From the NCBI GenBank assembly GCA_964236865.1, contig CAXSGJ010000030.1, positions 36,210 through 51,818 of the forward strand: 15,609 nt of DNA, in the 5' to 3' direction. Positions 1-11,756 of this stretch are shown here, one piece after another. The translations under genes and the position numbers were made by a program. This DNA is from an uncultured Polyangiaceae bacterium (GTDB lineage: Bacteria; Myxococcota_A; Polyangia; Polyangiales; Polyangiaceae). A model generated the notes under the pieces. That model had not been told where the DNA came from and searched no databases. It saw nothing but the letters and a program-made list of their open reading frames with translations. Numbering within the stretch: the stretch's first letter is position 1; each line of letters starts with the position of its first letter.

Positions 1-1000
1 GCTACGATCGCGCTGCGGTCGATCAGCCGCCCCTGCAAAAAGCCGCGCATCGGCCGGTTGCCGCCGAGTGAAACTTGATCCGTGAACGGGATCGTGCCTC
101 GCAACGGGTCGGTAAAGTCTGCGGCCACGCCCAGACCGAGCACGCGCCGCTTCCAAAGGTCTATCCCAACCCCCGCTGCGCCGCCGTAGGCGACCCACGC
201 TCTCCGCTTTGCGTCATTGCTCGAAGGCGCAATGACACTCTCGCCGTGTGCTTCGAGCCGGACGCCGGTGCCGACGTACGGATCTGCCTGGCGTGTATCG
301 ATCGCAACGGATAGCGATTGAAACGCTGCGATGTAGCCCAGCCCGTACCCCGGCGGCGAGGGCACCGTACCGTTGGCGACTGCGTCGGAGAGCGCGGGCT
401 CCGAGCAGCAACCGCCGTCGCCAAAGCTCAGCGTGCGCATCCCGGCGCGAGCAGCGAGCGCGCTCAAATGCCAAAAGTCATTTTCATAACCGAGCGCGAA
501 CTCAGACGTCATCGCTTGGTAGCGGTAACGGGGGTCGCTCGGGCTGCGTGGACCGATGCCGAAGAAGGGCAAGTCTTTGCGCCGCACGAAGCTCGCTTGC
601 TCCGCGATCACTTGCCGCGGAGTCAGCGCGTACTCGTCGCTTTGATGCACCGATATCCAATCCGGGCCCCAGGTGCCAAAATGCAGCTTGAGCGTGTTGG
701 GGTCGGTCAGGAAATACTTCCAAGTCAAGTTGAAGCCGACGCTCGGCTTCAAGCCGAAGTCGAACAGCGCAGATGGAAACAGCGACACGTTCTGGCGTTC
801 ACCGAACGTGAAAAAGTCGACCACCTGCTGCGGCCATTGATTGCGCTCTGCAGCGCGAGTCAGCGCGCCGATCGGCTCACGCACCACGTACTCACTCACG
901 AGCCAGAGCGGGAACAAGATTACGCGTGGCACCCAGAGCAGCGCGGGCCCCACGGTGGGCGGCGGCGGACCGCCGTATTGCTGGGGCTCCCGTTTCGGAG
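1..1000. repeat. Left copy of a diverged direct duplication, paired with 3381..4380.
   Basis: Aligns base for base with 3381..4380 at a constant offset of 3,380 nt. For example, 21..50 gatcagccgcccctgcaaaaagccgcgcat matches 3401..3430 gatcaatcgaccctgcaggtagccgcgcat, and 947..1000 matches 4327..4380. In the stretches I aligned by eye, roughly four of five bases match. Similarity ends where the signal-peptide codons begin. Confidence 0.85.
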
Positions 1001-1124
1001 ACCCAAGTGCCATCGGCGAATACAGAACCCCGATGGCCAACCAAGCGATGGCCAAGAAGGAGGAAAGGAACTGCCGCTGACGACGGAAAAAAACTCTAAA
1101 GATTAAGCCGCGTGTGGGTAACAC
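1..1124 (-). CDS. Omp85/BamA-TamA-family (bacterial surface antigen type) outer-membrane beta-barrel protein, paralog of 3125..4510. The 3' end lies beyond the left edge (partial).
   Basis: Absent from the ORF track because no stop codon falls inside the window. My reverse-strand translation is open from the in-frame TGA at 1127..1125 down to position 1. It reads ..RRQRQFLSSFLAIAWLAIGVLYSPMALG SPKREPQQYGGPPPPTVGPALLWVPRVILFPLWLVSEYVVREPIGALTRAAERNQW.. and ends ..FTDQVSLGGNRPMRGFLQGRLIDRS. This is colinear with the 461-aa ORF at 3125..4510 with no frameshift. The start is uncertain: GTG at 1124 gives a basic n-region plus a hydrophobic signal peptide, but I see no convincing Shine-Dalgarno sequence. 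Confidence 0.72.
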   Translation of the reverse strand, partial: MLPTRGLIFRVFFRRQRQFLSSFLAIAWLAIGVLYSPMALGSPKREPQQYGGPPPPTVGPALLWVPRVILFPLWLVSEYVVREPIGALTRAAERNQWPQQVVDFFTFGERQNVSLFPSALFDFGLKPSVGFNLTWKYFLTDPNTLKLHFGTWGPDWISVHQSDEYALTPRQVIAEQASFVRRKDLPFFGIGPRSPSDPRYRYQAMTSEFALGYENDFWHLSALAARAGMRTLSFGDGGCCSEPALSDAVANGTVPSPPGYGLGYIAAFQSLSVAIDTRQADPYVGTGVRLEAHGESVIAPSSNDAKRRAWVAYGGAAGVGIDLWKRRVLGLGVAADFTDPLRGTIPFTDQVSLGGNRPMRGFLQGRLIDRSAIV

Positions 1125-1383
1125 TCAGTCAGGGGTGCCGGTTCCGGGGAACAGGGTCAAGAATAAACGCAAGTGCACGCGAATTGAGACAGATTGCTAT
1201 CGACCAAATGGCGCGCTTCGCACGGTACCAGCGCAAGGCCCGCGAATGGTTCAGTCGATCACCCTCGGCCGAGCATCCTCGCTGGGCCTCGTCGCTGCTC
1301 AACTACATTCCAACAGGTTGCGTTTTCGTCGCGCCTGCCGGGCCTCGGCCGCGATCATCGACCGGCTTAGCCCTCCGCGAGCC

Positions 1384-3135
1384 CTAGGACTCGGGGCGTT
1401 CGATGCCAACCAGACGCAAACCGCGCGCGGGCCCTAGGTCGTAAAGGTGGACTGCGAGCGGGCCCGGCGCGACGCCATTCGCGATGCGGACGGTCACGTA
1501 GCGCTCCACGGCGTTGTCCGGCACCGACCCGGCAAGCGCGGCTTGCGGCACGTCCAGACATGTGTCGTCCTTTCCGACGAACACCGCCTTGACCGGCAAG
1601 GGATCGGCTTTGCCGCGCGCGATGTCCGCCGCATAGTGAAATGCCTCCCGAGGAAACGTCGCGGTCTTGCGCGCTAGATCCGTGGCGCACAAGCGGCGGC
1701 CCTCGACGTGCACATCAGCCAGCGGAGAGAGCTTGGAAAAATAACGCTTCAAAATGGTGTGCTGCCGGTCACGGAGCACTCGATACAAATATTCTGTGTG
1801 CGCGGGGTTGGTCAGATCGGCGACACCGACCGCCGCGCGCACGTCCTCGGCGGTGAAGCGAGCGATGATGCGGGTCGCCCACGCTGCGTCGCGCTCGGTC
1901 ATACGTGAGAAGGCCGGGTTCGGGTAGAGCCCGCGCCACAGATCCGGGTCGAAGTCGCGCTCGCTGAAGTAGCCAAAGTTGGTGGCGCCTGGGGTGCGGT
2001 ACGCTCGCTCCCAAGGGCGCTCTTGAGTTCCAAACGTGGCGAAGTCTTCTAGAATGTAATTGAAGTCGAGCAAGTAGGAGTGGCCCATTCGACGCGAGAA
2101 GCCGTCCTCGGTCCATTCGCTACCAAAACAGTCGCCGAGGTCGATGTACCAGTGGCGGACGTAGCCCGCGCTCTTCGGATCCTTCGAGTTGGCCGCCATC
2201 CAGGTGGACATGCTGTTTTGCTCACGCGAATCGAAGTGGTTGAGCCACGCCGCCAGCACGCGGGCGCCTCGCAAATCACGCCGATTTTCATGGGCGATGG
2301 TGTCAGACGGGTCATCGTCCCGGCTCCCCTCGTAGGTGAACGGCCCGAGCGCCGCGCCCGGAAGCCAGCGCGACGCCACGGCCCGGTAAAGCTCACCGCG
2401 CCGACCGCCTGCTGACAAGATCTGGCTCAGCAACTTGTCGTCGAATTTCCGGACTGGGCCGACATTGGCTTTGATCGTCAAGCCAGGCTTCAATTTGAGC
2501 ACCGACTTTTTGAAATAGACGACACTATCGCAAGGCGCCCACCACCCGGCAGCATAGTAAAGCCGCGAGGCGACCGCGGCGGCGCTGGTGGTGCGCTCCG
2601 CTTGCGCGTCGTCCGTCTTCAGCATGAACTTCGTGCCGTCGACCTTGATGCGAAAGCCAGGATTGGCGCCGTTGTCCTTGCCGTGGTCGATGAGCCAGCT
2701 CCCGTCGGCCGCTTCGTCGGGTTTCAGCTGGGGCCCTTCGGAGCAATAGCCTGTAGCTACGGCTTCCGCGGACATGGGCTGCGAGCCGATGCGATTCGTG
2801 AACCAGCTCGAGTCCGGGACCTCGTCGAAGGCGTTGACGTTTTCGGCCTCGCCGTAAGAGTCGACCTGAAAAAACTTGGACACGGGGCGAAAGATCACGT
2901 GGTCCGCGGCGTCCCAAGCGAACGAGCTTTCGTAGGGCTCTGGCATGCAGGCAGCCGCCTCTACGCCCGCCTTCGGGGGCGTTTCCGGGCAATCGATCTT
3001 TACAAGATCGAGATCTTGGTCGCGCAGGACCGGCGGACTCAGCGCGAAGCGGCGGGGGTCCTCTGCACACGAGACCAGCCCAGCAGTACACGCGAGCAAG
3101 CGCAGCAGTCTTCGGCGGAGCCGGTCAGATGCCAT
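1384..3135 (-). CDS. Exported lipoprotein of unknown function, 583 aa, with a putative protein-kinase-like (atypical kinase) central domain.
   Basis: 583-aa ORF. The N-terminus MASDRLRRRLLRLLACTAGLVSC has a basic n-region, a hydrophobic core and a lipobox L-V-S-C. The start ATG lies inside the last codons of the upstream barrel gene (11-nt overlap, ATGGCATCTGA). Internal motifs are FRIKVDGTKFMLK..AE, LAAWLNHFDSREQN (HxDxxxxN) and WYIDLGDCFG (DFG-like). It has multiple Cys residues, consistent with an extracytoplasmic location. Confidence 0.85.
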   Translation of the reverse strand: MASDRLRRRLLRLLACTAGLVSCAEDPRRFALSPPVLRDQDLDLVKIDCPETPPKAGVEAAACMPEPYESSFAWDAADHVIFRPVSKFFQVDSYGEAENVNAFDEVPDSSWFTNRIGSQPMSAEAVATGYCSEGPQLKPDEAADGSWLIDHGKDNGANPGFRIKVDGTKFMLKTDDAQAERTTSAAAVASRLYYAAGWWAPCDSVVYFKKSVLKLKPGLTIKANVGPVRKFDDKLLSQILSAGGRRGELYRAVASRWLPGAALGPFTYEGSRDDDPSDTIAHENRRDLRGARVLAAWLNHFDSREQNSMSTWMAANSKDPKSAGYVRHWYIDLGDCFGSEWTEDGFSRRMGHSYLLDFNYILEDFATFGTQERPWERAYRTPGATNFGYFSERDFDPDLWRGLYPNPAFSRMTERDAAWATRIIARFTAEDVRAAVGVADLTNPAHTEYLYRVLRDRQHTILKRYFSKLSPLADVHVEGRRLCATDLARKTATFPREAFHYAADIARGKADPLPVKAVFVGKDDTCLDVPQAALAGSVPDNAVERYVTVRIANGVAPGPLAVHLYDLGPARGLRLVGIERPES

Positions 3136-4510
3136 GGTGTGATCCGATCACGACGCGTAACGCCGAGTAATGAAAACCTTGTTCGAACGGATCGGTGGCG
3201 CCCGCTACCAGGAGCTCCAACCCCGAGTCTGGCGAGCCGTTCGAGCGAATGCCGATCGCCGTGCTGAGGCGCAGCAGGTCGGCAGAAAAACCGTCGAGGT
3301 GCGGACCAAATACGTTGCCGACGTCGGCCTGTACGACGCCATTCAGGTATACCCAGACCGGCCAGACATACTGTGCCGTGGCCACTGCGGAGCTGCGGTC
3401 GATCAATCGACCCTGCAGGTAGCCGCGCATGGGGCGTTCACCGCCCAGCGATACCTGGTCGGTGAAAGGGATCGCGCCTTTGACCGGATCGGTGAAGTCC
3501 ACCGTCACACCTAGACCGAGCACCCGGCGCCGCCACAGGTCGATCGCCACACCTGCCGCACCGCCGTAGCCTACCCAAGCTCGCCGCTTGTCGTTGCTGT
3601 TCGACGGAGCAACGACGCTCTCGCCGTGGGCTTCTACGCGCAGGCCCGTGCCCACGTATGGGATCGCTTGCCGAGTGTCGAGCGCGATTGATAAGGCTTG
3701 AAAAGCCGCGATATAGCCCTGGTGATAGCCGGGAGGGGACGGCACCACACCGTTGGCGACGGCACTCGAGAGGGCAGGGTCCGAACAACAACCGCCGTCA
3801 CCGAAGCTCAGTGTTCGCACGCCCGCGCGCGTCGTTAGGGCGCTCAAGTGCCAAAAGTCATTTTGGTAGCCGAGCGCAAACTCAGACGTCATTGCCTGAT
3901 AACGGTACCGTGGGTCGCTCGGGCTGCGGGGGCCGATGCCGAAAAACGGCAGGTCCTTGCGGCGCACGAAGCTCGCTTGCGTGGCGATGATCTGACGCGG
4001 GGTGAGGGCGTACTCGTCGCTGGCCTTGATCGCGACCCAGTCCGGTCCCCAAGTCCCGAAGTGCACCTTGAGCGTGTTCGGATCCGTGAGAAAATACTTC
4101 CAATTCAAGTTGAATCCGACGCTCGGCTTCAACCCGAAATCGAATAGCGCCGAAGGGTACAGCTCGATGTTCTGCCGTGGCCCGAAGGTGAAGAACTGGA
4201 TCACCGCGTCCACCCATTGATTGCGCTCCGCGGTGCGAGTCAGCGCGCCGATCGGCTCGCGCAGGACGTACTCGCTCACTAACCAAACCGGAAACAGCAC
4301 AACCCGCGGCACGTACATGAGCGAAGGCCCCACGCGCGGCGGTGGTGGCCCGCCATAGTGTTGCCGCTCACGCTTGGGATTGGCGAACGCGCTGCTCGAC
4401 CACAACGTCGCCAGAAGCACGATCAGGCAATGAGCGGCGAACGCTCGGCAGCGAGCGCGCGGGCGCGTCGTGAAGGTCAAGTCGAGCACCGAGAAATCAG
4501 CTTCACGCAT
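3125..4510 (-). CDS. Omp85/BamA-TamA-family outer-membrane beta-barrel protein lacking POTRA repeats.
   Basis: 461-aa ORF with ATG start. The signal peptide ..RAFAAHCLIVLLATLWSSSAFA/NP has an AxA cleavage site. The body shows amphipathic beta-strand patterning throughout. The C-terminal signature SLGGERPMRGYLQGRLIDRSSAVATAQYVWPVWVYLNGVVQADVGNVFG matches the conserved LGGxxxxRGY ... D.G.V block of the bacterial surface antigen (Omp85) barrel. Only about 55 residues separate the signal peptide from the first strands, too few for POTRA domains. Confidence 0.85.
   Translation of the reverse strand: MREADFSVLDLTFTTRPRARCRAFAAHCLIVLLATLWSSSAFANPKRERQHYGGPPPPRVGPSLMYVPRVVLFPVWLVSEYVLREPIGALTRTAERNQWVDAVIQFFTFGPRQNIELYPSALFDFGLKPSVGFNLNWKYFLTDPNTLKVHFGTWGPDWVAIKASDEYALTPRQIIATQASFVRRKDLPFFGIGPRSPSDPRYRYQAMTSEFALGYQNDFWHLSALTTRAGVRTLSFGDGGCCSDPALSSAVANGVVPSPPGYHQGYIAAFQALSIALDTRQAIPYVGTGLRVEAHGESVVAPSNSNDKRRAWVGYGGAAGVAIDLWRRRVLGLGVTVDFTDPVKGAIPFTDQVSLGGERPMRGYLQGRLIDRSSAVATAQYVWPVWVYLNGVVQADVGNVFGPHLDGFSADLLRLSTAIGIRSNGSPDSGLELLVAGATDPFEQGFHYSALRVVIGSHHGI
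3381..4380. repeat. Right copy of a diverged direct duplication, paired with 1..1000.
   Basis: See the left copy. The duplication covers the mature part of the Omp85-like barrel gene but not its signal peptide or upstream region. Confidence 0.85.
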
Positions 4511-4698
4511 GCCCTGTAGCGTGGAACGCCCGAGAACTAAAGCGTCCGGTCTGAGCGTGCGCTTTGTTAGACATCGCAGCCAGGGCGCTTCGTGCGACTG
4601 GCCGGGTCCGCTCGCGACCCTTTTTGTGCCTCGCGCTTGGCTGTTGCGACCGCGCAGTCATGAGCGGCGACGCTCGCCGGCAACGACGGCGTGAATCG

Positions 4699-5697
4699 CT
4701 AACGTCGGCGTCTCGCGCTGAACAGAAACAGGATGGCCGCGGCGCCGCCCACAGCGGCGGCCGTCAGCAGCCCCCGGTGCATTGCCGCTTCGGCCACTAG
4801 GCTCGTGCTCCGAGAACGCGCATCGAACGTGCCGTGGGCGCCAGGGTCGCCGGCCACCGGAGCAAACAGGTTATCCGCCGCGTCCCGAGCGACGGGCTCA
4901 TCGGTCTGCTGGGCGTCATACCCAGTGATGCCCAGGTATCGATCGGTCAACCCCGGCGCGAGCTTCGCGCCTCCCACGATGGCAAGCCAGGTGGGCAAGC
5001 CAACGTACAGCTCACGGCGCTTCGAGCGAGCGGCGTACGCGATGGCGCGCGCTGCCACCTCAGGTTGAAAGATGGGTGGTACCGGCTGGGCTTTACGCGG
5101 TAGGCGGCTCTTGACCCAACTGAATTGCGGCGTGTTCAGCGCCGGCATGTGGACCATCGTGATGCTCACTCGGCTCTTGTCATGGTGGAGCTCGCAGCGG
5201 ATGGAGTCGGTGAAGCCGCGGACGCCGGCCTTTGCGCCACAGTAGGCAGATTGCAGCGGGATGCTGCGATAGGCCAGCGCAGAGCCGACCTGGACGATTT
5301 TCCCTCGGTTCCGCTTGGACATGCGCTTGAGCGCCGCCATGGTTCCGTTGACGACACCCAAGTAGGTGACCGCCGTGACCCGCGCGAACTCCTCGACGGT
5401 CATATCCACGAACGGAGAAAATACCGACGTCATGGCGTTATTGATCCACACGTCGATCGGCCCGAAGGCGCGCTCGGTTTCTTCGGCCGCGTGCTCTACC
5501 GCTCCGGCATCGGCTACGTCGATCGGGAACACCAGTGCTCGGCCACCCGCGGCCTCCACGTCACGCTGGGTGCCGGCGAGCCCCTCGAGGCCGCGCGCAA
5601 TCAGGGCGATGTGCGCGCCTTGACGCGCGAACGCAAGCGCCGCCGCTCGCCCCACGCCCGCGGAAGCGCCGGTGATGACCACTACCTGAGGCATCAC
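4699..5697 (-). CDS. Short-chain dehydrogenase/reductase (SDR) family oxidoreductase with a C-terminal hydrophobic tail anchor.
   Basis: N-terminal Rossmann motif VVVITGASAGVGRAAA (TGxxxGxG), an NNA motif (WINNAM) and the catalytic YCGAKAG (YxxxK). The C-terminal GLLTAAAVGGAAAILFLFSARRRR looks like a single TM anchor. The track start is GTG at 5697. The adjacent ATG at 5694 is equally or more likely and overlaps the GMC stop codon (TGATG). Confidence 0.93.
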   Translation of the reverse strand: MMPQVVVITGASAGVGRAAALAFARQGAHIALIARGLEGLAGTQRDVEAAGGRALVFPIDVADAGAVEHAAEETERAFGPIDVWINNAMTSVFSPFVDMTVEEFARVTAVTYLGVVNGTMAALKRMSKRNRGKIVQVGSALAYRSIPLQSAYCGAKAGVRGFTDSIRCELHHDKSRVSITMVHMPALNTPQFSWVKSRLPRKAQPVPPIFQPEVAARAIAYAARSKRRELYVGLPTWLAIVGGAKLAPGLTDRYLGITGYDAQQTDEPVARDAADNLFAPVAGDPGAHGTFDARSRSTSLVAEAAMHRGLLTAAAVGGAAAILFLFSARRRR

Positions 5698-7247
5698 GCC
5701 CTGTTCAACCGTTCTAACAAGTGGTCACCCACGCGCAATGCATTGGCCATGATGGTGAGCGAAGGATTGATCGCGCCGCTCGAAGGAAAGAAGCTACCAT
5801 CTACCACATACAAGTTGTCCAGATCATGGGCTTTGCACATGACGTCCAGTACGGACGTGCTCGGGTCGACACCGAAGCAGCACGTGCCACACTGGTGTCC
5901 AACCTGGGCCAGCGGGATGGTTTTTTTGAAATACAGAGATTGCGGAAAAAAGAGAGTTTGCCCGTCGGCCGCCTCCAAGCACTCTTTCCAGCGTTTCATC
6001 AGCCGTGTGAAGCCTTCCGTGTACCGCTCTTCGTAGTCTAGAATGATCTGAGCGCCCTCGATGCGCACTCGGTTGTCCTTCAAGGGCATGTCTTCGGCGG
6101 TTAACCACCAGTCGATGGAGTGGTGCGCGCTGGCATCGAGCGCCGGGCCAGGAACGAGGCCGAAGGTGTCGGGGCCCAGCATGTCCCCAAGCACCTTGCC
6201 GAGGAGCTGCGCGTGGCCCATCGGAAAGGAAAAATCTCGTTCGCCCCAATAGAAGTCATTGCTGGCGATGGTCTTTTGAAAGATGGTCGGGTTTAGGGAG
6301 CGCCCAACGGCGACGATACTTCCATTGTGATGCTTCATGAAGTTGCGGCCCACTAGGTCCGAGCTATTGGCCAGACCCTGCGGGTGACGGTCGTTGGCCG
6401 ACCTCAGCAACAGCGCCGCCGAGTTGATCGCCCCGGCGGCAACCACGACGATATCCCCGGTAACGCACTGGGACGGACCTCCGTCCACGCTGAGTTCGAC
6501 GCCGGAAACTTCGCGGCCCGATGCGGAGGTGAGCAAGCGCGTGACATAAGCGCCGGTCCACAGCTCGACGTTTTGGTACTTCAGTGCGGGCCGTACACAG
6601 ATTACCTCCGAGTCTGCCTTGGCGTGCACCAGGCAGGGAAAGCCGTCGCAGGTCCCGCATTTGATGCACGGGCTGTGCGCCATGTCCGCCTCGTTCAGGT
6701 CCACCCCGAGCGGGATTGAAAACGGATGCAGGCCTTGGGCTAGGAGCGCGTGGCGGAGCTCGGCGATCCGCGGCTCGTCGCGCACGGCCGGAAACGGGTA
6801 GGGCGCACTGCGCTCGGCGTCTGTCGGATCTTCACCCGCTGCGCCGTGCACACGATACAGAGCCTCTGCCTCCTGGTAGTGAGGCTCCAGGTCTGCGTAT
6901 GTAATTGGCCAAGCCGGAGACCGTCCGCCCCCCGCGTGGATCACCTCTCCGAAATCCGCCTGGCGTAGTCGAAACAGTGCGGCGCCGTAGACCTTGGTAT
7001 TGCCGCCCACCCAATAGCCAGTGCCGGGATGAACGTCCTTCCCGTCCTTGTCACGCCACACGTCCTTGGTGTGATAGCGGTTGTCTTCAAACACCGCGCT
7101 CGCGCTCCAGTTCTCCTTCTCGCGCGGCAGGTACCCTCCGCGCTCCAGCACCAGAATGCGCTTGCCCGAGGGCGCAAGCTTGGAAAGCAGCGTGCCGCCC
7201 CCCGCGCCGGTGCCGATGATGATCACGTCGAAGTGGTTCGTCGTCAT
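5694..7247 (-). CDS. GMC-family FAD-dependent oxidoreductase.
   Basis: N-terminal FDVIIIGTGAGGGTL..LVLERG (GxGxxG FAD fold). C-terminal GMC signature VGHQCGTCCFG....LYVVDGSFFPSSGAINPSLTIMANALR. There is also an internal Cys-rich CIKCGTCDGFPC block. The ATG at 7247 overlaps the upstream stop codon (ATGA). Confidence 0.95.
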   Translation of the reverse strand: MTTNHFDVIIIGTGAGGGTLLSKLAPSGKRILVLERGGYLPREKENWSASAVFEDNRYHTKDVWRDKDGKDVHPGTGYWVGGNTKVYGAALFRLRQADFGEVIHAGGGRSPAWPITYADLEPHYQEAEALYRVHGAAGEDPTDAERSAPYPFPAVRDEPRIAELRHALLAQGLHPFSIPLGVDLNEADMAHSPCIKCGTCDGFPCLVHAKADSEVICVRPALKYQNVELWTGAYVTRLLTSASGREVSGVELSVDGGPSQCVTGDIVVVAAGAINSAALLLRSANDRHPQGLANSSDLVGRNFMKHHNGSIVAVGRSLNPTIFQKTIASNDFYWGERDFSFPMGHAQLLGKVLGDMLGPDTFGLVPGPALDASAHHSIDWWLTAEDMPLKDNRVRIEGAQIILDYEERYTEGFTRLMKRWKECLEAADGQTLFFPQSLYFKKTIPLAQVGHQCGTCCFGVDPSTSVLDVMCKAHDLDNLYVVDGSFFPSSGAINPSLTIMANALRVGDHLLERLNRA

Positions 7248-8302
7248 GGAGTCGTAACCAGGCCCTTCTCTGAAGCGCGTTCGAACAAGCGCACGCTGTG
7301 ACCGTCCGGGTCTCGGACCAGGGCCGCACGCGCCACGTCGGGCCCCAAAAAGCGCCCGCCGAGCGCGCGGCCGGGTACGTCGCCGCCGCTCGCGCGCAGT
7401 GCACGGAGGCTCTCGTCTAAGTTCGGAACCTCGAGCACGATCTCCCAGTGGGAGGTGTCGGCCGCTGTGCTCACCGGGAACGGCAACCCGGGTCCTGGAG
7501 ACAGGTACTCGAGGAGCTCGATGCCCGGGCCCTGCGCGCCGCGCAGGGAAGTAATTTTAACGCGCGCGCCGGCTACCCCACTCAAGAGCTCCTGTTCGTG
7601 ACCCTCGTTCAGGCTCTCGCTCATCACGCGCAGGCCGAGCGCATCCCGATAAAATCGCAAACTCTGAGCCGTGCTGCGCGTCGCAATCGCCGAATGATCG
7701 ATGCCCAAGAAAATGCGATTCGTGTCGCTTTGCCAACGAGGGTCGCCCTTGCCCTTTGGAAACTGAATCAGCTCCATGAAGTGTCCCTCCGGGTCGCGGA
7801 AATAAAACGCGCGGATGCCGGCGGCGACCGGGTTACTGGCGGGCAAGGTTTGAGGAGCGGACGAAACCGGGCGCATGCGTGTCATCGCCAAGCGGCGGTA
7901 TGCTTCATTCATATCGCGCACGACCAACGCCACGTGCTCGAAGCCGGTGTCATTGGCGCGCAGCACGTCGACCGCCCGCGCGGGCGGCGTAGAAAATTGC
8001 CGGAGCATCAGCGCCTGTTCGCCGAGGTGCAACGTCAACTCATGCGCTTGCCCGTGCGGCACCGAGACGAGCTCTGCAAAGCTAGGGCCCGACAGCTCCT
8101 GCACCGGCCCGGATATCATGTCGAACGCCGTCAGAAACGCCCGCTCGGACTCGATGTCGAGCACGGTCATCTCGAACGCTGACACCGCAGCTGAACTTTG
8201 CGCCGCGCGAGGCGAGCTCGGGACGGGCGCGGCCGCACAGCCAGTTACAATGAGAGCGAGCCAAACACGCATGAGGAGTATGCGAGTTACGGGCCTCTGC
8301 AC
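7244..8302 (-). CDS. VOC (glyoxalase/bleomycin-resistance/extradiol-dioxygenase fold) family protein, two tandem VOC modules, probable lipoprotein.
   Basis: 352-aa ORF. It has repeated VOC-type blocks (FEHVALVVRDMNEAYRRL ... GHFMELIQF, and IDHSAIATRSTAQSLRFYRDALGL ... PGIELLEY ... DGHSVRLFE). The N-terminus ..MRVWLALIVTGCAAAP contains a lipobox (V-T-G-C). The track start is GTG at 8302. The internal ATG at 8272 would give a shorter, classical lipoprotein signal. Confidence 0.86.
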   Translation of the reverse strand: MQRPVTRILLMRVWLALIVTGCAAAPVPSSPRAAQSSAAVSAFEMTVLDIESERAFLTAFDMISGPVQELSGPSFAELVSVPHGQAHELTLHLGEQALMLRQFSTPPARAVDVLRANDTGFEHVALVVRDMNEAYRRLAMTRMRPVSSAPQTLPASNPVAAGIRAFYFRDPEGHFMELIQFPKGKGDPRWQSDTNRIFLGIDHSAIATRSTAQSLRFYRDALGLRVMSESLNEGHEQELLSGVAGARVKITSLRGAQGPGIELLEYLSPGPGLPFPVSTAADTSHWEIVLEVPNLDESLRALRASGGDVPGRALGGRFLGPDVARAALVRDPDGHSVRLFERASEKGLVTTP

Positions 8303-8408: not shown

Positions 8409-9254
8409 GTGGCCGTACTTCCCCGTACATTCAGGGTGCGTCTAACCTTCGTCGTCCCCCGCGCTCTCCGGCGCCACTGGATTGAGTACTCATTCGAAGC
8501 CCTCGGTTTGGCGGTCTTCATGCTCTCGGCGTGCTTGATCACGGCTTTGCTGGAGTTTCCGAGCTCGGGAGTGCACCGTGCTTTGCCAAATGAAGACGTC
8601 CGGCGTGCCCTATTGGGTGTTGGCATGGGCCTGACCGCGGTGGGCATCGTGTACTCGCCGCCGGGTCAGCGCTCCGGCGCCCACATCAATCCCGCTGTGA
8701 CCTTGGCCTTTCTGAGGCTCGGTAAGATCGAACCGGTCGATGCATTCTTTTATGTGCTTGCGCAGTTTGCCGGCGGCGTGCTCGGTGTGCTGCTCTCGCG
8801 CGCGCTCATTCCGCATGAAATCGCCGACCCGGCGGTGCGCTTTGCGGTCACCGTGCCCGGAAAACACGGCGTCGCGGCCGCGCTGGCCGCCGAGCTCGTC
8901 ATCTCGTTCGTGCTGATGAGTGTGGTGCTCACGGTCGGCAGCATCGGCGCGGCGGCGCCCTTCGTTGGGCTGGCGACGGGGTTGCTCGTGGCGCTGAACG
9001 TGTTTTTTGCTGCGCCTTTCTCCGGCTTCGGTATGAACCCCGCGCGCAGCGCCGGATCCGCCGTCGTGTCAGGGGTTTGGACCGCCTGGTGGGTGTACTG
9101 GCTCGCGCCACCTGTGGCCATGTTGGTGGCCGCGGAGGGCCACTGGCGCCTGCGTGGCGCGCACGCCATGGCATGCGCCAAGCTCCATCACAGCTCGCGC
9201 CTGGCTTGCATTTTCTGTGACTTTCAACCGAAGGCTTTGGAGCACAAACCATGA
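8409..9254 (+). CDS. MIP/aquaporin-family channel protein.
   Basis: Both hallmark NPA boxes are present and in frame: HINPAVT (NPA at 8688..8696) and GMNPARS (NPA at 9036..9044). They are flanked by six hydrophobic segments. The GTG start at 8409 is the longest option and the true start may be a little downstream. There is an unusual Cys/His-rich C-terminal tail. Confidence 0.93.
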   Translation: MAVLPRTFRVRLTFVVPRALRRHWIEYSFEALGLAVFMLSACLITALLEFPSSGVHRALPNEDVRRALLGVGMGLTAVGIVYSPPGQRSGAHINPAVTLAFLRLGKIEPVDAFFYVLAQFAGGVLGVLLSRALIPHEIADPAVRFAVTVPGKHGVAAALAAELVISFVLMSVVLTVGSIGAAAPFVGLATGLLVALNVFFAAPFSGFGMNPARSAGSAVVSGVWTAWWVYWLAPPVAMLVAAEGHWRLRGAHAMACAKLHHSSRLACIFCDFQPKALEHKP

Positions 9255-11104
9255 CTGAGCCCTCGGCGAGTCGGCCGATCTCCGATTACGCCATCATCGG
9301 CAATTGTCGCTCAGCCGCCTTGGTTTGCAAAAATGGCAGCATCGATTGGCTGTGCTGGCCGCGCTTCGATAGTCCGCCGGTGCTGAGCGCGCTGCTCGAT
9401 CCAAGTGCGGGCGGCAGTTGGCTCATCGCGCCAGTCGGGCCGCTCGCAGCAAAAGGCACACGGAGTTACGTCGGCGCCACGGCCGTGCTCGAGACTCGCT
9501 TCAGTGATGAAGAGTCCGAGCTCGTGCTCACCGATGCCATGACCATCACTGACGGTGAAGATCAAGCGAGCGCGCTGTCGCCAGAGAATGAATTGCTGCG
9601 CATCGTTACCTGCACCCGTGGCCGGGTCGAGGTCGCGGTCGTGTTCGACCCTCGCCCGGACTTCGCGAGGCAAAGCAAGCGGGTCAAGCTCGTCAGTCGC
9701 GGAAAGCTCGGCATCCGAATGGAGGCGCCGGACGGCTTGCTCACGCTGCGTTCCGACCCGGAGCTCAGCATCGGCGCATCCGGCGCTAGTGGTCAGTTCT
9801 GGCTCTCGGAAGGTGAGTCTGCATACTTCTCGCTCACCCACACCGTCGATGCCCCGGCGGTCATCCCGCCCCTGGGTGATTGGACGCGCCGCGTGCTCGC
9901 CAGGACCCGCACGCTATGGGAAGAGTGGTCGCAAAAGACGCGTTACGAAGGTCCGTATCGCGAGCTCGTGTTGAGGAGCGCGGTCGTGGTCCGGCTCCTC
10001 GCTTACGCTCCCAGCGGAGCGATCGTCGCAGCGCCCACCACCTCCCTGCCAGAGACGATCGGCGGCAAGCACAATTGGGATTATCGATTCTGCTGGCTGC
10101 GCGACGCGGCCTTCACTGTGCGCGGTATGCTCGAGCTTGGCCACCCTGATGTGGCGGAGGCGTTTACGGGCTGGCTGCTGCACGCCACGCGGCTCTCGAA
10201 GCCCAAGCTCATGGTGCTGTATGATGTGTATGGCCGGCGGCCGCCGGATGAGCAAGAGCACGAGCATGTCGCAGGTTATAGCGGCTCACGTCCGGTCCGG
10301 ACCGGCAACGGTGCGGATGGGCAAGTCCAATTGGATTGCTACGGCGAGGTGATCGACGCGGTCTGGCGCGTGACGCTCGCGGGCATGCACCTAGACCGTG
10401 AGACGGCCTCCACCGTCGAAGCATTCGGGGGCTACGTTTGCAAACATTGGCGCGACCCAGATGCGGGGATTTGGGAGCCGCGGGAAGCGCCCAAGCAACA
10501 CACGCATTCGCTCGTGCTGTGCGCGGTGGCCCTGGACCGCTTGGTGGATTTGCAAGAGCGGGGTCACCTCCGGCCCCGTCATCGCGCGTTATTCGAAGCT
10601 GAGCGCGCCAAGATCCGCGAGCAGGTCGAGGCGCGTGGCTACAGCGAGGCTCTGTCGAGTTACACCGCTGAGCTCGACGGCGACACCTTGGATGCGACTT
10701 CACTGCTGCTGGGCTGGTACGATTACCAACGTAGCGACGCGCCGCGGATGAAGAGCACGTCCCGCGCGCTGCTAGCCCAGCTTTCGCCGGCCCCCGGGTT
10801 GCTGTATCGATACCGGCACGCGGAGGACGACGAGGGCGCGTTCGGAATCTGCGGCTTTTGGATGGCCGAGCACCTGGCTAAGGGGGGCGGGACGCACGAG
10901 GAGGCGCGCGTGGCCTTCGAGCAGAGCATTGCGTACGGAAATGACGTCGGACTCTTCAGCGAGGAATTCGACCCTAAGAGCGGCGCCGCGCTCGGCAACT
11001 TTCCTCAAAACTTCAGCCACGTGGGCTTGATCAACGCTGCCTTATCACTGGCTGACCGCGCTCAGAGCGATGCCAGCGCCACCCATCGAGGACACCTGCC
11101 ATGA
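9251..11104 (+). CDS. Glycoside hydrolase family 15 protein (glucoamylase/trehalase-like).
   Basis: 617-aa ORF. The characteristic bacterial GH15 N-terminus is ISDYAIIGNCRSAALVCKNGSIDWLCWPRFDSP. The catalytic-domain blocks are NWDYRFCWLRDAAF, DAGIWEPRE (general-acid Glu context) and GLFSEEFDP (general-base Glu context). The ATG overlaps the aquaporin stop codon (ATGA). Confidence 0.95.
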   Translation: MTEPSASRPISDYAIIGNCRSAALVCKNGSIDWLCWPRFDSPPVLSALLDPSAGGSWLIAPVGPLAAKGTRSYVGATAVLETRFSDEESELVLTDAMTITDGEDQASALSPENELLRIVTCTRGRVEVAVVFDPRPDFARQSKRVKLVSRGKLGIRMEAPDGLLTLRSDPELSIGASGASGQFWLSEGESAYFSLTHTVDAPAVIPPLGDWTRRVLARTRTLWEEWSQKTRYEGPYRELVLRSAVVVRLLAYAPSGAIVAAPTTSLPETIGGKHNWDYRFCWLRDAAFTVRGMLELGHPDVAEAFTGWLLHATRLSKPKLMVLYDVYGRRPPDEQEHEHVAGYSGSRPVRTGNGADGQVQLDCYGEVIDAVWRVTLAGMHLDRETASTVEAFGGYVCKHWRDPDAGIWEPREAPKQHTHSLVLCAVALDRLVDLQERGHLRPRHRALFEAERAKIREQVEARGYSEALSSYTAELDGDTLDATSLLLGWYDYQRSDAPRMKSTSRALLAQLSPAPGLLYRYRHAEDDEGAFGICGFWMAEHLAKGGGTHEEARVAFEQSIAYGNDVGLFSEEFDPKSGAALGNFPQNFSHVGLINAALSLADRAQSDASATHRGHLP

Positions 11105-11577
11105 TGTTACTTCACTGTGGGTTCTGGGGGCTCTTCGCGACGATCGTGCTGACGACCCTGCTAGCGGCCAGTCAAGGGCTCGGCTTCACGCGCATGAACA
11201 TGCCTTTCTTGCTCGGAACCATTTTCACGGCAAACCGTGATCGCGCCAAAGTCTACGGAGTGGGACTGCACTTCCTGCTCGGCATCGTGCTCGCGTGGCT
11301 GTACCTGATCACATTCCAAATCTGGGATGGCGCGACGTGGTGGAAGGGCCTGATCCTCGGTGGCCTGCATGCCTGTTTTTTGTTGACGCTCGGGGTGACG
11401 CTCCTACCCGGCATTCACCCGCGCATGGCCAGCGAGCAACAGGGCCCGACCGCATTGAAACAGCTCGAGCCGCCCGGGTTTCTCGGCATGCACTACGGCA
11501 ATCGCACGCCCGTCTCTGTGCTGATCGGTCACCTGATCTTCGGCCTAATCCTCGGCATTTTCTTGCCGCATCACTGA
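11101..11577 (+). CDS. Small integral membrane protein, about 4 TM segments, unknown function.
   Basis: 158-aa ORF with four clear hydrophobic stretches (FWGLFATIVLTTLLAA, GVGLHFLLGIVLAWLYLITF, LILGGLHACFLLTLGVTLL, VLIGHLIFGLILGIFL). The ATG overlaps the GH15 stop codon (ATGA), implying co-translation with the two upstream genes. Confidence 0.8.
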   Translation: MMLLHCGFWGLFATIVLTTLLAASQGLGFTRMNMPFLLGTIFTANRDRAKVYGVGLHFLLGIVLAWLYLITFQIWDGATWWKGLILGGLHACFLLTLGVTLLPGIHPRMASEQQGPTALKQLEPPGFLGMHYGNRTPVSVLIGHLIFGLILGIFLPHH

Positions 11578-11756
11578 CGGCCGAATCACATGCGGCCGCC
11601 TCGGTCACGGGCGCCGCTCTGGTTCGCGTGTCGGCGAAATCATGCGGCCGAGGGCCAAGGTGCATGCAGCCGCCGCGCGACCCTCAGCGCCCATGCCGTC
11701 GCCAGGCGCAGTCCGTGGCATGAGCGCTCGGGCGGATCCGAGCTACACAGAGTCCA

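What the first reader, a model, noticed from the sequence alone, without database searches (positions are those of the whole stretch)
1384..4510. POTRA-less Omp85-type barrel translationally coupled to a large lipoprotein: a candidate dedicated surface-export or two-partner pair
The barrel gene's last codons contain the start codon of the 583-aa lipoprotein (11-nt overlap at 3125..3135), so the two are almost certainly co-translated in fixed stoichiometry. The barrel has the conserved Omp85 C-terminal block. It has only a short conserved Pro-rich N-terminal segment (GGPPPPxVGP..VPRV.LFP.WLVSEYV.REPIGALTR) instead of POTRA repeats. It also ends in ..GSHHGI rather than the usual aromatic C-terminal residue. 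Known Omp85 relatives handle partner proteins: TpsB does so for TpsA, TamA acts with TamB, and the unrelated Slam barrels do so for surface lipoproteins. A minimal Omp85 barrel hard-wired to one lipoprotein is not a pairing I can place in a described system. A plausible role is to move or anchor the lipoprotein at the cell surface.
Basis: partly seen in the sequence, partly recalled or inferred. Interest (0 to 1): 0.65.

Follow-up and report, generated by a model that had tools for sequence, protein, structure and literature searches.

The report
Omp85 barrel paired with kinase-like lipoprotein
An outer-membrane barrel gene that lacks the usual periplasmic domains overlaps, and in some relatives is fused to, a gene for an exported lipoprotein with a protein-kinase-like fold; the pairing is widespread but undescribed and hints at phosphoryl-transfer chemistry outside the cytoplasm.

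Summary
On the minus strand, a 461-aa barrel ORF (4510..3125) overlaps a 583-aa lipoprotein ORF (3135..1384) by 11 nt. The barrel is a 16-stranded Omp85 fold with no POTRA domain. In its place is a very conserved hydrophobic N-terminal helix, so it belongs to the known but uncharacterised "noNterm" Omp85 class.

- **The lipoprotein is an enzyme-like protein.** It has a protein-kinase-like fold (best match H. pylori CtkA). The Lys, HxDxxxxN and DxG catalytic residues are conserved, and cysteine pairs co-vary as disulfides would.
- **The cassette is duplicated.** A second barrel copy lies at 1..1124.
- **The family is large and unannotated.** About 3,200 clusters at 50% identity span Myxococcota, Latescibacterota, Zixibacteria and other phyla.

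Barrel-then-lipoprotein adjacency recurs in 87 of about 160 loci sampled. Two independent lineages fuse lipoprotein and barrel into one protein after deleting the barrel's signal peptide. Relatives' loci often add an NTT/TLC-like transporter and a PAP2 or metallophosphoesterase gene, but the window has neither.

Best reading: a stable outer-membrane complex in which the lipoprotein supplies the barrel's missing N-terminal domain in trans and acts as an extracytoplasmic phosphotransferase. Substrate, sidedness and nucleotide source are inferred, not shown. Dedicated surface export is neither excluded nor specifically supported.

The parts
3125..4510 (-). Barrel gene 1: noNterm Omp85-family outer-membrane protein (461-aa longest ORF; the true start may be an internal TTG).
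   Evidence: ORF and translation. AF2 model with 16 strands, pLDDT 86.8. Foldseek match to BamA/TamA at E = 4e-8. Pfam Omp85 at 19.8 bits for this protein, but 37 of 51 homologues hit.
4382..4510 (-). Predicted Sec signal peptide of barrel 1 (...LLATLWSSSAFA | NPKRE).
   Evidence: Read from the translation. Homologues start near here. Both natural fusions delete exactly this segment.
4193..4324 (-). Conserved hydrophobic N-terminal helix (SLMYVPRVVLFPVWLVSEYVLREPIGALTRTAERNQWVDAVIQF) that stands in place of POTRA domains. Candidate docking element for the lipoprotein.
   Evidence: AF2 helix at residues 31-64 and 67-74 of the 429-aa query. Per-column conservation of 0.9-1.0 at W, P, R, V, L, F, P, E, R, P, G; mean Kyte-Doolittle hydropathy +1.5 over the first 21 residues.
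3140..4168 (-). 16-stranded Omp85 beta-barrel domain.
   Evidence: DSSP on the AF2 model. Foldseek against PDB.
3419..3445 (-). Loop-6 motif GGERPMRGY, the Omp85 (V/M)RG(Y/F) lid-lock motif.
   Evidence: Motif definition as used in PMC11358297.
3125..3135 (-). 11-nt overlap ATGGCATCTGA: lipoprotein start codon inside the last codons of the barrel (translational coupling).
   Evidence: Conserved in relatives and in the second cassette.
1384..3135 (-). Lipoprotein gene 1: 583-aa exported protein with a protein-kinase-like fold and a C-terminal beta-sandwich.
   Evidence: AF2 pLDDT 83.8, pTM 0.85. Foldseek match to CtkA at E = 1e-4, probability 1.0, followed by PI4KIIalpha, haspin, PKA, HipT and APH. 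No Pfam, NCBIfam or PDB sequence hit.
3067..3078 (-). Lipobox LVSC (Cys23).
   Evidence: Cys invariant in A1 and present in 78 of 116 divergent representatives.
2791..2820 (-). Family signature VPDSSWFTNR in the N-terminal region; role unknown.
   Evidence: S109 114/116, W111 113/116, N114 106/116, R115 114/116.
1726..2718 (-). Kinase-like catalytic domain (about residues 140-470).
   Evidence: Order of secondary-structure elements in the AF2 model. Foldseek matches.
2617..2682 (-). Gly-rich loop GKDNGANPGF through the beta-3 lysine K173 (FMLK); predicted nucleotide-binding elements.
   Evidence: G156 108/116, G160 109/116, K173 107/116, D175 103/116, E180 89/116.
2266..2292 (-). HENRRDLRG: invariant arginine cluster. 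Inferred anion or phosphate-substrate binding site.
   Evidence: H282 115/116; R285, R286 and R289 all 116/116.
2215..2238 (-). HFDSREQN: catalytic-loop motif HxDxxxxN (compare HRDLKPEN of protein kinases).
   Evidence: H300 96/116, D302 112/116, N307 109/116.
2122..2142 (-). DLGDCFG: DFG-like metal-binding motif.
   Evidence: D332 113/116, G334 92/116, G338 115/116.
1387..1722 (-). C-terminal beta-sandwich domain ending in the conserved ...LRLVGIERP. In the fusions it is joined directly to the barrel's N-terminal helix.
   Evidence: AF2 strands at residues 472-579. R580 invariant. Fusion junctions.
1..1124 (-). Barrel gene 2 (paralogue, 77% aa identity to barrel 1), truncated by the left edge of the window. 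It starts a second barrel-lipoprotein cassette.
   Evidence: blastn to both barrel copies of L002. Translation and blastp. Complete copy, with the same overlap into a second lipoprotein start, on contig L169.

Best explanation
The two genes encode a stable two-component outer-membrane complex, and the cassette is tandemly duplicated in this organism.

**Components.** The barrel is a noNterm Omp85 protein: a 16-stranded barrel with a loop-6 RGY motif. Its POTRA region is replaced by a short, very conserved hydrophobic helix. The partner is an exported, disulfide-bonded lipoprotein with a protein-kinase-like (PKL) catalytic domain and a C-terminal beta-sandwich.

**Proposed mechanism.**
1. Translational coupling makes the two proteins together.
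2. The lipoprotein is lipid-anchored. Its C-terminal sandwich docks next to the barrel's N-terminal helix, so it acts as the barrel's missing N-terminal domain supplied in trans.
3. The kinase-like domain carries out nucleotide-dependent phosphoryl transfer on an envelope substrate (lipid, glycan or protein) in the extracytoplasmic space. The barrel positions it at the outer membrane or gives it access across that membrane.
4. In many relatives, though not within this window, an NTT/TLC-like inner-membrane transporter and a PAP2 or metallophosphoesterase gene sit in the same operon. I read these as the nucleotide conduit and the opposing phosphatase.

**Shown:** gene structure, both folds, motif conservation, export signals, synteny and the fusions.
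**Inferred:** physical complex, catalytic activity, substrate class, sidedness (periplasmic versus surface) and nucleotide supply.
For: **Pairing**
- The 11-nt overlap is present and conserved in relatives.
- Barrel-to-lipoprotein same-strand adjacency (250 nt or less) occurs in 87 of about 160 sampled loci. That includes 42 of 52 lipoprotein genes of a subfamily only about 30-35% identical to the window's, from contigs of 48-74% GC.
- In Sorangium the two genes stay neighbours although inverted.
- Distance matrices of 44 cognate pairs correlate at r = 0.95; the maximum over 1000 permutations is 0.34.
- The cassette duplicates as a unit.

**Fusions.** Two independent natural fusions have the order lipobox, PKL domain, sandwich, helix, Omp85 barrel. 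Both have lost the barrel's signal peptide.
- P0267 (1000 aa) is found in two samples.
- P0449 (981 aa) is found in three samples.

**Barrel fold**
- AF2 and Foldseek results.
- Pfam Omp85 hits across the family.
- No POTRA family is hit.
- The N-terminal helix is more conserved than most strands.

**Enzyme**
- AF2 pLDDT is 83.8. The top six Foldseek hits are CtkA kinase chains (E = 1e-4 to 8e-4, probability 1.0), followed by many bona fide kinases.
- K173, D302, N307 and D332 are conserved in 107-113 of 116 representatives with median identity 34%. R285, R286 and R289 are invariant.

**Extracytoplasmic location**
- A lipobox is present.
- Cysteine pairs are present or absent together: C131/C202 is 57 both, 57 neither, 2 mixed; C483/C526 is 68, 46, 2.

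**Phosphate and nucleotide context in relatives**
- A TLC/NTT-like gene (E < 1e-20) is present in 38 of 68 GTDB loci and 17 of 24 metagenome loci of 9 kb or more. It occurs in at least five different gene orders.
- PAP2 directly follows the lipoprotein in 11 loci.
- A non-homologous Metallophos phosphoesterase follows the P0449 fusion by 16 nt.
- One locus also has PPK2 and a Na/Pi cotransporter.
Against: - No experiment or complex prediction was possible, so the interaction rests on genomic inference.
- The window and its closest relatives (L001-L013) have no TLC-like or PAP2 gene within 6 kb. The nucleotide-supply step is therefore extrapolated from other clades.
- The TLC-like proteins are only distant NTT relatives (25-49 bits on PF03219; 36 bits on TIGR00769 against a cutoff of 387). 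Their substrate is unknown.
- Periplasmic ATP is not an established pool in bacteria.
- Foldseek TM-scores are moderate (0.27-0.30 normalised to the 583-aa query, 0.47-0.55 to CtkA). No sequence HMM links the family to any kinase family.
- About a quarter of lipoprotein genes with enough flank have no Omp85 partner nearby (22 of 75 in GTDB, 6 of 52 in metagenomes). These include a complete Latescibacterota genome locus and a clade where an unrelated secreted protein takes the barrel's position.
- The aligned lipobox Cys is absent in about a third of divergent representatives.
Confidence: 0.5

Rival explanations
1. Dedicated surface export. The barrel acts as a private translocator or anchor that puts the kinase-like lipoprotein on the cell surface. 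It would be functionally Slam-like, or autotransporter/type Vd-like, with the N-terminal helix running through the barrel pore as the linker does in autotransporters or helix H1 does in FhaC.
For: - Obligate pairing and fusions.
- In the fusions the enzyme sits N-terminal to a helix that leads straight into strand 1. From my own knowledge of those structures, this is the topology of an autotransporter passenger, linker helix and barrel, and of FhaC H1.
- The closest structural relative, CtkA, is a secreted kinase.
- The same idea was raised for Leptospira noNterm Omp85 proteins and their downstream lipoproteins (PMC11358297).
Against: - The helix is strongly hydrophobic with a low amphipathic moment. 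That suits burial in lipid or a protein interface better than an aqueous pore.
- The loop-6 lid motif is retained. PMC11358297 uses this feature to argue against a transport pore.
- Relatives' loci add PAP2 (by general knowledge of that family, a membrane protein with a periplasm-facing site) and an inner-membrane transporter. This points to periplasmic chemistry.
- ATP delivered outside the cell would be lost.
- There is no TPS domain, no POTRA and no DUF560.
Confidence: 0.25
2. Nucleotide or phosphate scavenging. The lipoprotein binds or processes external nucleotides or organophosphates. The barrel is the outer-membrane entry point. The NTT-like transporter imports nucleotides, which is the canonical NTT direction. 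PAP2 or Metallophos would release phosphate.
For: - A nucleotide-binding fold is found next to a nucleotide-transporter-family gene in many loci.
- Phosphatases are adjacent.
- Locus L124 adds PPK2 and a Na/Pi cotransporter with a PhoU domain.
- Characterised NTTs import nucleotides (PMC5381601).
Against: - The catalytic base D302 is conserved (112/116). Mere binding would not require it.
- By my own knowledge, Omp85 barrels are not known nutrient channels, and the loop-6 lid is retained.
- PPK2 and NaPi occur in only one locus.
- The window itself has none of the transport genes.
Confidence: 0.1
3. Alternative BAM-like insertase. The barrel is a BamA paralogue that folds particular outer-membrane proteins, and the lipoprotein is a non-catalytic accessory or regulatory subunit like BamB-E (a pseudokinase scaffold).
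For: - The barrel's best structural matches are BamA and TamA.
- noNterm Omp85 proteins were proposed to act in membrane-protein biogenesis (PMC4104836).
- By general knowledge, BAM works with lipoproteins.
Against: - The full catalytic constellation is under strong purifying selection across sequences about 30% identical. A scaffold would not need it.
- Phosphatase and transporter neighbours have no place in an insertase model.
- There are multiple paralogous cassettes per genome.
Confidence: 0.08
4. Secreted kinase toxin with a phosphatase immunity gene, exported by a TpsB-like partner.
For: - The lipoprotein resembles the HipA/CtkA-type toxin or effector kinases.
- A phosphatase gene follows the kinase-like gene in some loci.
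Against: - The protein keeps a lipid anchor and forms permanent fusions to the barrel.
- Barrel and lipoprotein distances track each other across the 44 adjacent pairs, which fits co-inheritance as a unit and does not suggest the rapid, variable evolution I would expect of a toxin cassette; the loci show no variable toxin tips or mobile-element context.
- Most loci, including this window, have no phosphatase gene.
Confidence: 0.04

Closest known systems
noNterm Omp85 subfamily (Heinz & Lithgow 2014, PMC4104836; Leptospira LIC12252/12254/12258, PMC11358297)
   Same: - A 16-stranded Omp85 barrel with the loop-6 RG(Y/F) lid motif and no POTRA domain.
- In Leptospira, too, a lipoprotein gene lies immediately downstream.
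- Function is unknown in both cases.
   Different: - No DUF5982 signature (no Pfam hit). Instead there is a distinct, highly conserved hydrophobic N-terminal helix.
- The partner is a kinase-like enzyme, not a DUF1566 or Big-domain adhesin-like lipoprotein.
- The pair overlaps, is sometimes fused, and is linked to NTT-like and phosphatase genes.
PlpD / type Vd secretion (patatin-POTRA-Omp85 barrel)
   Same: An enzyme domain is joined N-terminally to an Omp85-type barrel in one polypeptide (the fused relatives P0267 and P0449).
   Different: - No POTRA domain.
- The enzyme has a kinase-like fold, not a patatin lipase fold.
- The N-terminus carries a lipobox.
- In the window the two parts are separate genes in the order barrel then enzyme.
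Two-partner secretion (TpsB FhaC / TpsA FHA)
   Same: An Omp85-family barrel is encoded next to a dedicated partner protein. FhaC also begins with an N-terminal helix.
   Different: - No POTRA1-2.
- The partner lacks a TPS domain and beta-helix.
- The partner is a lipoprotein that can be permanently fused to the barrel.
- The helix is hydrophobic rather than a polar pore plug.
BAM/TAM-type Omp85 machines with partner proteins (BamA with BamB-E or RcsF; TamA with TamB)
   Same: The barrel's closest structural matches are BamA and TamA. Those are also Omp85 barrels working with a dedicated partner.
   Different: - No POTRA domains.
- The partner is unrelated to BamB-E, RcsF or TamB.
- The partner has a conserved catalytic site.
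CtkA / HipA / PI4K-II-like atypical kinases of the protein-kinase-like superfamily
   Same: Bilobal kinase fold with a beta-3 Lys, an HxDxxxxN catalytic loop and a DxG metal-binding motif. CtkA is also an exported kinase.
   Different: - No detectable sequence similarity to any Pfam, NCBIfam or PDB kinase.
- Extra N-terminal region with the DSSWFTNR motif, an invariant RRxxR cluster, a C-terminal beta-sandwich, a lipid anchor, disulfides and an Omp85 partner.
NTT, NTT-HEAT and cNMP-binding modules of free-living bacteria (Major et al. 2017, PMC5381601)
   Same: The TLC-like, TLC-HEAT and cNMP-binding genes next to the pair in many relatives match this described but functionally unexplained group.
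   Different: That paper reports no link to Omp85 or kinase-like lipoproteins. These genes are absent from the window itself.

Membership tests
Omp85 superfamily (Pfam PF01103) | Sequence match to the Omp85 HMM at or above the gathering score. | tested here: inconclusive
   The window protein scores 19.8 bits, below the gathering score of 24. However, 37 of 51 aligned family members hit (best E = 1.7e-12), and divergent members score 67 and 101 bits.
Omp85 superfamily (Pfam PF01103) | 16-stranded beta-barrel fold. | tested here: met
   The AF2 model (pLDDT 86.8) has 16 strands. Foldseek matches BamA 7bnq_A at 4.2e-8 and TamA 4c00 at 4.7e-8, with 106 PDB chains at E <= 1e-3.
Omp85 superfamily (Pfam PF01103) | Loop-6 (V/L/M)RG(Y/F/W) motif. 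| tested here: met
   GGERPMRGY at 3419..3445. The family consensus is GGDxPMRGY.
noNterm Omp85 subfamily (Heinz & Lithgow) | No POTRA or other folded periplasmic N-terminal domain. | tested here: met
   No POTRA family is hit in 51 members. AF2 shows only a helix of about 44 residues before strand 1.
DUF5982-type noNterm Omp85 (Leptospira group) | DUF5982 signature over the first two strands. | tested here: not met
   Pfam scans of the window protein and 50 homologues list only PF01103.
BamA | Five N-terminal POTRA domains. | tested here: not met
TpsB / two-partner secretion | Two POTRA domains in the barrel protein, and a TPS (haemagglutination-activity) domain in the partner. | tested here: not met
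   No POTRA. The partner has no Pfam hit at all and folds as a kinase-like domain.
TamA/TamB | Three POTRA domains, and a TamB (DUF490/AsmA-like) partner. | tested here: not met
   No such gene was found in the window.
Slam (surface lipoprotein assembly modulator) | DUF560 14-stranded barrel with an N-terminal TPR domain. | tested here: not met
   The barrel has an Omp85 fold with 16 strands. There is no DUF560 hit.
Type Vd (PlpD) | Patatin passenger, one POTRA domain and an Omp85 barrel in one chain. | tested here: not met
   These are separate genes in the window. The fused relatives have no POTRA and no patatin domain.
Protein-kinase-like (PKL) superfamily | Bilobal kinase fold. | tested here: met
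   Foldseek matches CtkA at probability 1.0, E = 1.2e-4 to 8.1e-4, TM 0.47-0.55 normalised to the target. PI4KIIalpha, haspin, PKA, ACVR1, HipT, APH and ERK2 follow.
Protein-kinase-like (PKL) superfamily | Catalytic constellation: beta-3 Lys, alpha-C Glu, HxDxxxxN and DxG. | tested here: met
   K173 107/116, E180 89/116, H300 96/116, D302 112/116, N307 109/116, D332 113/116. The residues fall in the expected secondary-structure order. Residue-level superposition on a kinase was not available.
Protein-kinase-like (PKL) superfamily | Nucleotide binding and phosphotransfer activity. | not testable with these tools
   This needs biochemistry.
HipA/CtkA family | Sequence membership (Pfam HipA_C or related HMMs). 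| tested here: not met
   No Pfam, NCBIfam or PDB sequence hit for the protein or for its 44-sequence profile.
Bacterial lipoprotein | Signal peptide ending in a lipobox [LVI][ASTVI][GAS]C. | tested here: met
   MASDRLRRRLLRLLACTAGLVSC|A. Cys23 is invariant in A1. Acylation itself is not testable here.

The most novel reading that the evidence does not exclude
The pair is the core of a previously unrecognised, widespread system for extracytoplasmic phosphorylation in diderm bacteria. A kinase-fold lipoprotein is held at the outer membrane by a POTRA-less Omp85 barrel. It phosphorylates an envelope component using ATP (or another nucleotide) exported to the periplasm by the enigmatic NTT/TLC-like transporters of free-living bacteria. 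PAP2 or metallophosphoesterase enzymes would reverse the modification. This would give Omp85 barrels a new role as platforms for enzymes, and would explain why free-living bacteria keep NTT homologues.
Probability: 0.25. Interest if true: 0.9.

Novelty: new variant of a known kind. Interest (0 to 1): 0.75.

Why it matters
Omp85 proteins are known as protein insertases and translocases. The POTRA-less "noNterm" class has no assigned function. Here one such class turns out to be obligately coupled, and twice fused, to an unannotated enzyme family of about 3,200 clusters at 50% identity. That family has a kinase fold, export signals and disulfides.

- If the complex is real, it gives noNterm Omp85 barrels a concrete, testable partner and role.
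- If the enzyme is active outside the cytoplasm, it raises the question of where the nucleotide comes from. The recurrent NTT-like neighbour offers a direct, testable answer to the open question of what NTT homologues do in free-living bacteria (PMC5381601).
- Cultured hosts exist (Labilithrix luteola DSM 27648 and Sorangium cellulosum So ce56), so experiments are feasible.

Tried and rejected
- **Family and sequence searches for the lipoprotein found nothing.** This covers Pfam and NCBIfam on the protein and 44 homologues, and PDB sequence and profile searches. Only the fold comparison was informative.
- **The PDB sequence hit of the barrel to "Porin 1"** (24 residues, E = 0.03) is a short strand motif and was ignored.
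- **The apparent lipoprotein-PAP2 fusion P0284 is an artefact.** The contig has 2x coverage, and an Arg-rich out-of-frame stretch joins two adjacent genes. I kept it only as evidence that the two genes are adjacent.
- **P0244** (barrel N-terminal fragment plus lipoprotein) was treated as a probable gene-call or assembly chimera.
- **The first neighbour clustering was unusable.** Single linkage on stop-to-stop ORFs was swamped by antisense shadow ORFs in high-GC DNA. It was redone with known genes masked.
- **Neighbouring Ser/Thr kinase and histidine kinase clusters** are judged to be background for Myxococcota.
- **PPK2 and the Na/Pi cotransporter** occur in one locus only and are anecdotal.
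- **My GC3-based gene caller failed on lower-GC loci**, including the window. Counts therefore rely on stop-to-stop ORFs searched with HMMs.
- **The secreted "SB" protein that replaces the barrel in one clade** has no PDB hit and no profile similarity to the Omp85 family. I do not call it a barrel.
- **I first described the Sorangium arrangement as divergent.** After converting coordinates it is convergent: LIPO> <BARREL TLC>.
It was repeated with 13 sequences.
- **No paper describing this pairing was found.** I ran nine full-text searches of the held library and read four papers.

Full report
**1. The observation**

The minus strand carries a 461-aa ORF at 4510..3125 and a 583-aa ORF at 3135..1384. 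The junction reads ...cacc ATG GCA TCT GA. The downstream ATG lies inside the last codons of the upstream gene, giving an 11-nt overlap at 3125..3135.

The overlap is a conserved trait rather than an accident.
- The closest relatives keep the same 55-nt distance between the barrel stop and the lipobox cysteine codon.
- In 27 of 32 co-directional pairs from reference genomes, the predicted start overlaps or abuts the barrel stop.
- A second copy of the cassette in the same organism has the identical ATGGCATCTGA junction.

**2. The barrel**

The window protein alone gives only a sub-threshold Pfam Omp85 hit (19.8 bits against a gathering score of 24, E = 6e-4). The family assignment is nevertheless secure.
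- 37 of 51 aligned homologues hit PF01103, best E = 1.7e-12.
- Divergent family members score 67 and 101 bits.
- The AF2 model (pLDDT 86.8, pTM 0.78) has 16 strands.
- The model matches BamA and TamA barrels at E about 4e-8, probability 1.0.
- The loop-6 motif GGERPMRGY is present.

No POTRA model is hit in any member. Between the signal peptide (...SSSAFA|NPK) and strand 1, the model shows only a long helix.

That helix is among the most conserved parts of the protein, with W, P, R, V, L, F, P, E, R, P, G columns at 0.9-1.0. It is hydrophobic (mean Kyte-Doolittle hydropathy +1.5 over its first 21 residues) and has little amphipathic moment. I read it as a buried docking element rather than a polar pore plug. 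This is an inference.

102 of 120 homologues end in Phe (GSHHGF). The window's Ile is a rare variant.

POTRA-less Omp85 proteins are a named class of unknown function, "noNterm" (PMC4104836). In Leptospira, such genes are followed by lipoprotein genes, and a lipoprotein-export role has been discussed for them (PMC11358297).

**3. The lipoprotein**

It has a signal peptide and the lipobox LVSC (Cys23). It has no Pfam, NCBIfam or PDB sequence match, either alone or as a 44-sequence profile.

The AF2 model is confident (pLDDT 83.8, pTM 0.85). Its best PDB matches are six chains of the H. pylori kinase CtkA (E = 1.2e-4 to 8.1e-4, probability 1.0, TM 0.47-0.55 normalised to CtkA). A long list of genuine kinases follows: PI4KIIalpha, haspin, PKA, ACVR1, HipT, aminoglycoside and sugar kinases.

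The sequence carries the expected motifs in the expected structural order:
- a Gly-rich loop, GKDNGANPGF;
- a beta-3 lysine (FMLK173);
- E180 at the start of the following helix;
- HFDSREQN (HxDxxxxN);
- DLGDCFG (DxG).

Across 115 cluster representatives with median identity 34% to the window protein, these residues are kept in 89 to 113 of 116 sequences. An RRxxR cluster (R285, R286, R289) is invariant. That pattern indicates an active enzyme, not a scaffold.

Three cysteine pairs appear and disappear together across the family: C131/C202 is 57 both, 57 neither, 2 mixed; C483/C526 is 68, 46, 2. This is the signature of disulfides and hence of an oxidising, extracytoplasmic location.

A beta-sandwich domain (residues 472-579) ends in the conserved ...LVGIERP.

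**4. Size and spread of the family**

- A word-indexed search found more than 2,699 homologues, every named one called "hypothetical".
- An exhaustive profile search found 3,196 cluster representatives (clustered at 50% identity) at E <= 1e-3, and 859 at E <= 1e-30.
- Named sources include Polyangiaceae, Labilithrix, Sorangium, Kofleriaceae, Latescibacterota, Zixibacteria, Calditrichota, TA06 and Marinimicrobia.

**5. The pairing is real**

Synteny:
- In 80 loci from GTDB species representatives, the barrel lies directly upstream on the same strand for 32 of 75 lipoprotein genes with enough flank. It lies elsewhere in the locus for 21 more, including all Sorangium, where it is inverted immediately downstream.
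- In 80 metagenome loci of a subfamily only about 30-35% identical to the window protein (GC 48-74%), it is directly upstream in 42 of 52.
- Overall, barrel-to-lipoprotein adjacency within 250 nt occurs in 87 loci.

Other evidence:
- Pairwise distance matrices of 44 cognate pairs correlate at r = 0.95, against a maximum of 0.34 in 1000 permutations. Shared species history contributes to this.
- The cassette duplicates as a unit. Window positions 1..1124 encode a second barrel, 77% identical to the first and cut by the window edge. Contig L169 shows that copy running into a second lipoprotein start. L002 has the same barrel-lipoprotein-barrel-lipoprotein layout, with orthology copy to copy.

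The strongest evidence is two independent natural fusions.
- P0267 (1000 aa, GC about 73%, two samples) and P0449 (981 aa, three samples) both have the order lipobox, kinase-like domain, sandwich, N-terminal helix, Omp85 barrel.
- In both, the barrel's signal peptide has been deleted precisely. Comparison of P0449 with the unfused neighbours in L124 shows the junction at ...LKLIGIV|PCLGQ..., which is the end of the barrel's signal peptide.

The fusions say that the lipoprotein's C-terminus and the barrel's N-terminal helix belong together in space. They also say the association is permanent rather than a transient export step.

**6. Wider context in relatives, not in the window**

Unsupervised and targeted neighbour analysis finds three recurrent additions.
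- **A TLC/NTT-like MFS transporter.**
  - It is present at E < 1e-20 in 38 of 68 GTDB loci and 17 of 24 metagenome loci of 9 kb or more.
  - It appears in at least five gene orders and is often operonic with the pair.
  - Some copies are fused to HEAT repeats or sit next to a cNMP-binding gene.
- **A PAP2 phosphatase.** It lies directly after the lipoprotein in 11 loci.
- **A calcineurin-like metallophosphoesterase.** In the P0449 clade it takes the place of PAP2.

The transporter genes match the NTT, NTT-HEAT and cNBD group that Major et al. described in free-living bacteria without a function (PMC5381601). They are only distant relatives of proven ATP/ADP translocases (25-49 bits on PF03219; 36 bits on TIGR00769 against a cutoff of 387), so their substrate is open.

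One low-GC locus also has PPK2 and a Na/Pi cotransporter, but that is a single case.

The window and its nearest relatives (L001-L013) have none of these genes within reach. The window's neighbours on the same strand are an SDR, a GMC oxidoreductase and a glyoxalase-family gene.

**7. Mechanism**

The best-supported model is a stable outer-membrane complex. The kinase-like lipoprotein is the barrel's N-terminal domain supplied in trans, and it performs nucleotide-dependent phosphoryl transfer on an envelope substrate.

Three independent recruitments fit phosphate chemistry in the periplasm: a transporter from a nucleotide-carrier family, and two unrelated phosphatase types.

What is not shown:
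- the physical interaction;
- catalysis;
- the substrate;
- which face of the outer membrane the enzyme occupies;
- that the TLC-like protein carries nucleotides outward.

In the fusions the enzyme precedes a helix that leads straight into strand 1, an autotransporter-like topology. But three things argue for a resident periplasmic complex: the helix is hydrophobic, the loop-6 lid is retained, and the recurrent partners are periplasm-facing or inner-membrane proteins. I give surface export about 0.25.

Nucleotide scavenging, a BAM-like insertase with a pseudo-enzyme subunit, and a toxin-immunity system are less likely. Reasons are given under the rival explanations.

**8. Comparison with known systems, and novelty**

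The barrel is a member of the Omp85 superfamily and of the descriptive noNterm class. It is not BamA, TamA, TpsB, Slam or PlpD, because defining features of each were tested and not met.

The lipoprotein is a new, unannotated branch of the protein-kinase-like superfamily. It is not a sequence member of HipA/CtkA or any other curated family.

I found no paper describing an Omp85 and kinase-like-lipoprotein pair, or its link to NTT-like genes, in nine full-text searches. The nearest is a 2026 preprint on a cytoplasmic PAP2-linked PKL family, which is a different protein.

I rate it a new variant of a known kind: an Omp85 barrel with a dedicated partner. There is a realistic chance, about 0.25, that it is the core of something categorically new, namely extracytoplasmic phosphorylation fed by exported nucleotide.

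**9. Limits**

- Locus samples are biased. The GTDB set keeps the best 80 hits, with about 20 near-identical Sorangium arrangements, and many metagenome contigs are short.
- Start positions used for gap estimates are approximations from HMM coordinates.
- About a quarter of lipoprotein genes with adequate flank lack a nearby Omp85 partner.

Noticed in passing
window 1..1124 (-): A second barrel paralogue, 77% aa identity to barrel 1, runs off the left edge of the window, so the ORF listing does not report it. The + strand ORF 318..1106 is its antisense shadow. On contig L169 it is complete (ending GSHHGI*) and overlaps a second lipoprotein start by the same ATGGCATCTGA. The locus is therefore a tandem barrel-lipoprotein-barrel-lipoprotein cassette, as in L002.
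   Followed up: yes
window 4699..8302 (-): Three genes with 4-nt overlaps lie upstream on the same strand: a short-chain dehydrogenase (4699..5697), a GMC oxidoreductase (5694..7247) and a two-domain glyoxalase/VOC protein (7244..8302). A 188-nt spacer separates them from barrel 1. The blastn match to the closest relative L002 runs on past barrel 1 into this upstream stretch (window 1381..5734); the other close relatives match only across the pair.
   Followed up: partly
window 8409..11577 (+): An apparent operon with overlapping starts: a MIP-family channel (8409..9254), a GH15 glucoamylase/trehalase-like enzyme with a TREH_N domain (9251..11104), and a small protein with a weak DUF1440 hit (11101..11577).
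   Followed up: no
window 4604..4620 (+): A GC-rich hairpin followed by TTTTTGTG sits on the + strand inside the spacer upstream of barrel 1. On the minus strand, which is the coding strand here, no T-run follows it, so it is not an obvious terminator for the upstream operon.
   Followed up: no
window 12423..13382 (-): A 319-aa ORF has a Dioxygenase_C (intradiol dioxygenase-like) domain. No link to the finding is evident.
   Followed up: no
L045, L046, L050, L055, L058, L071, L073-L077 (for example L073:5020-5916): In one Polyangiaceae clade, a conserved secreted protein of about 265 aa ("SB", ending RYRWATGDLWPEFP) sits between PAP2 and the lipoprotein, where the Omp85 barrel normally is. It has no Pfam or PDB hit and no profile similarity to the barrel family. 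It may be an alternative partner.
   Followed up: partly
L046:2786-3967, also L045, L050, L055, L071, L077: A DUF2252 gene (179 bits) lies between the TLC-like and PAP2 genes in six loci. From memory, DUF2252 is itself placed in the kinase clan; I did not check this here.
   Followed up: no
L124:2837-14274: A low-GC (48%) metagenome locus has the order PPK2 <, TLC-like >, Na/Pi cotransporter with PhoU >, lipoprotein >, barrel >, barrel >, lipoprotein >. The first lipoprotein's stop abuts the barrel's start, which is the gene order seen in the fusions. The phosphate and nucleotide theme is striking but occurs in this locus only.
   Followed up: partly
L034 (Sorangium cellulosum So ce56) 4696-5826 and 11244-12830: In Sorangium loci, the lipoprotein / barrel / TLC-like trio is flanked by an alpha/beta-hydrolase (lipase-like) lipoprotein and a GDSL lipase-family gene. 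This is a possible hint at a lipid substrate.
   Followed up: no
L084:2839-5352: The database protein P0284 ("kinase-like + PAP2", 837 aa) is a frameshift artefact of a 2x-coverage contig. The true layout is TLC-like, barrel, lipoprotein, PAP2 as separate abutting genes.
   Followed up: yes
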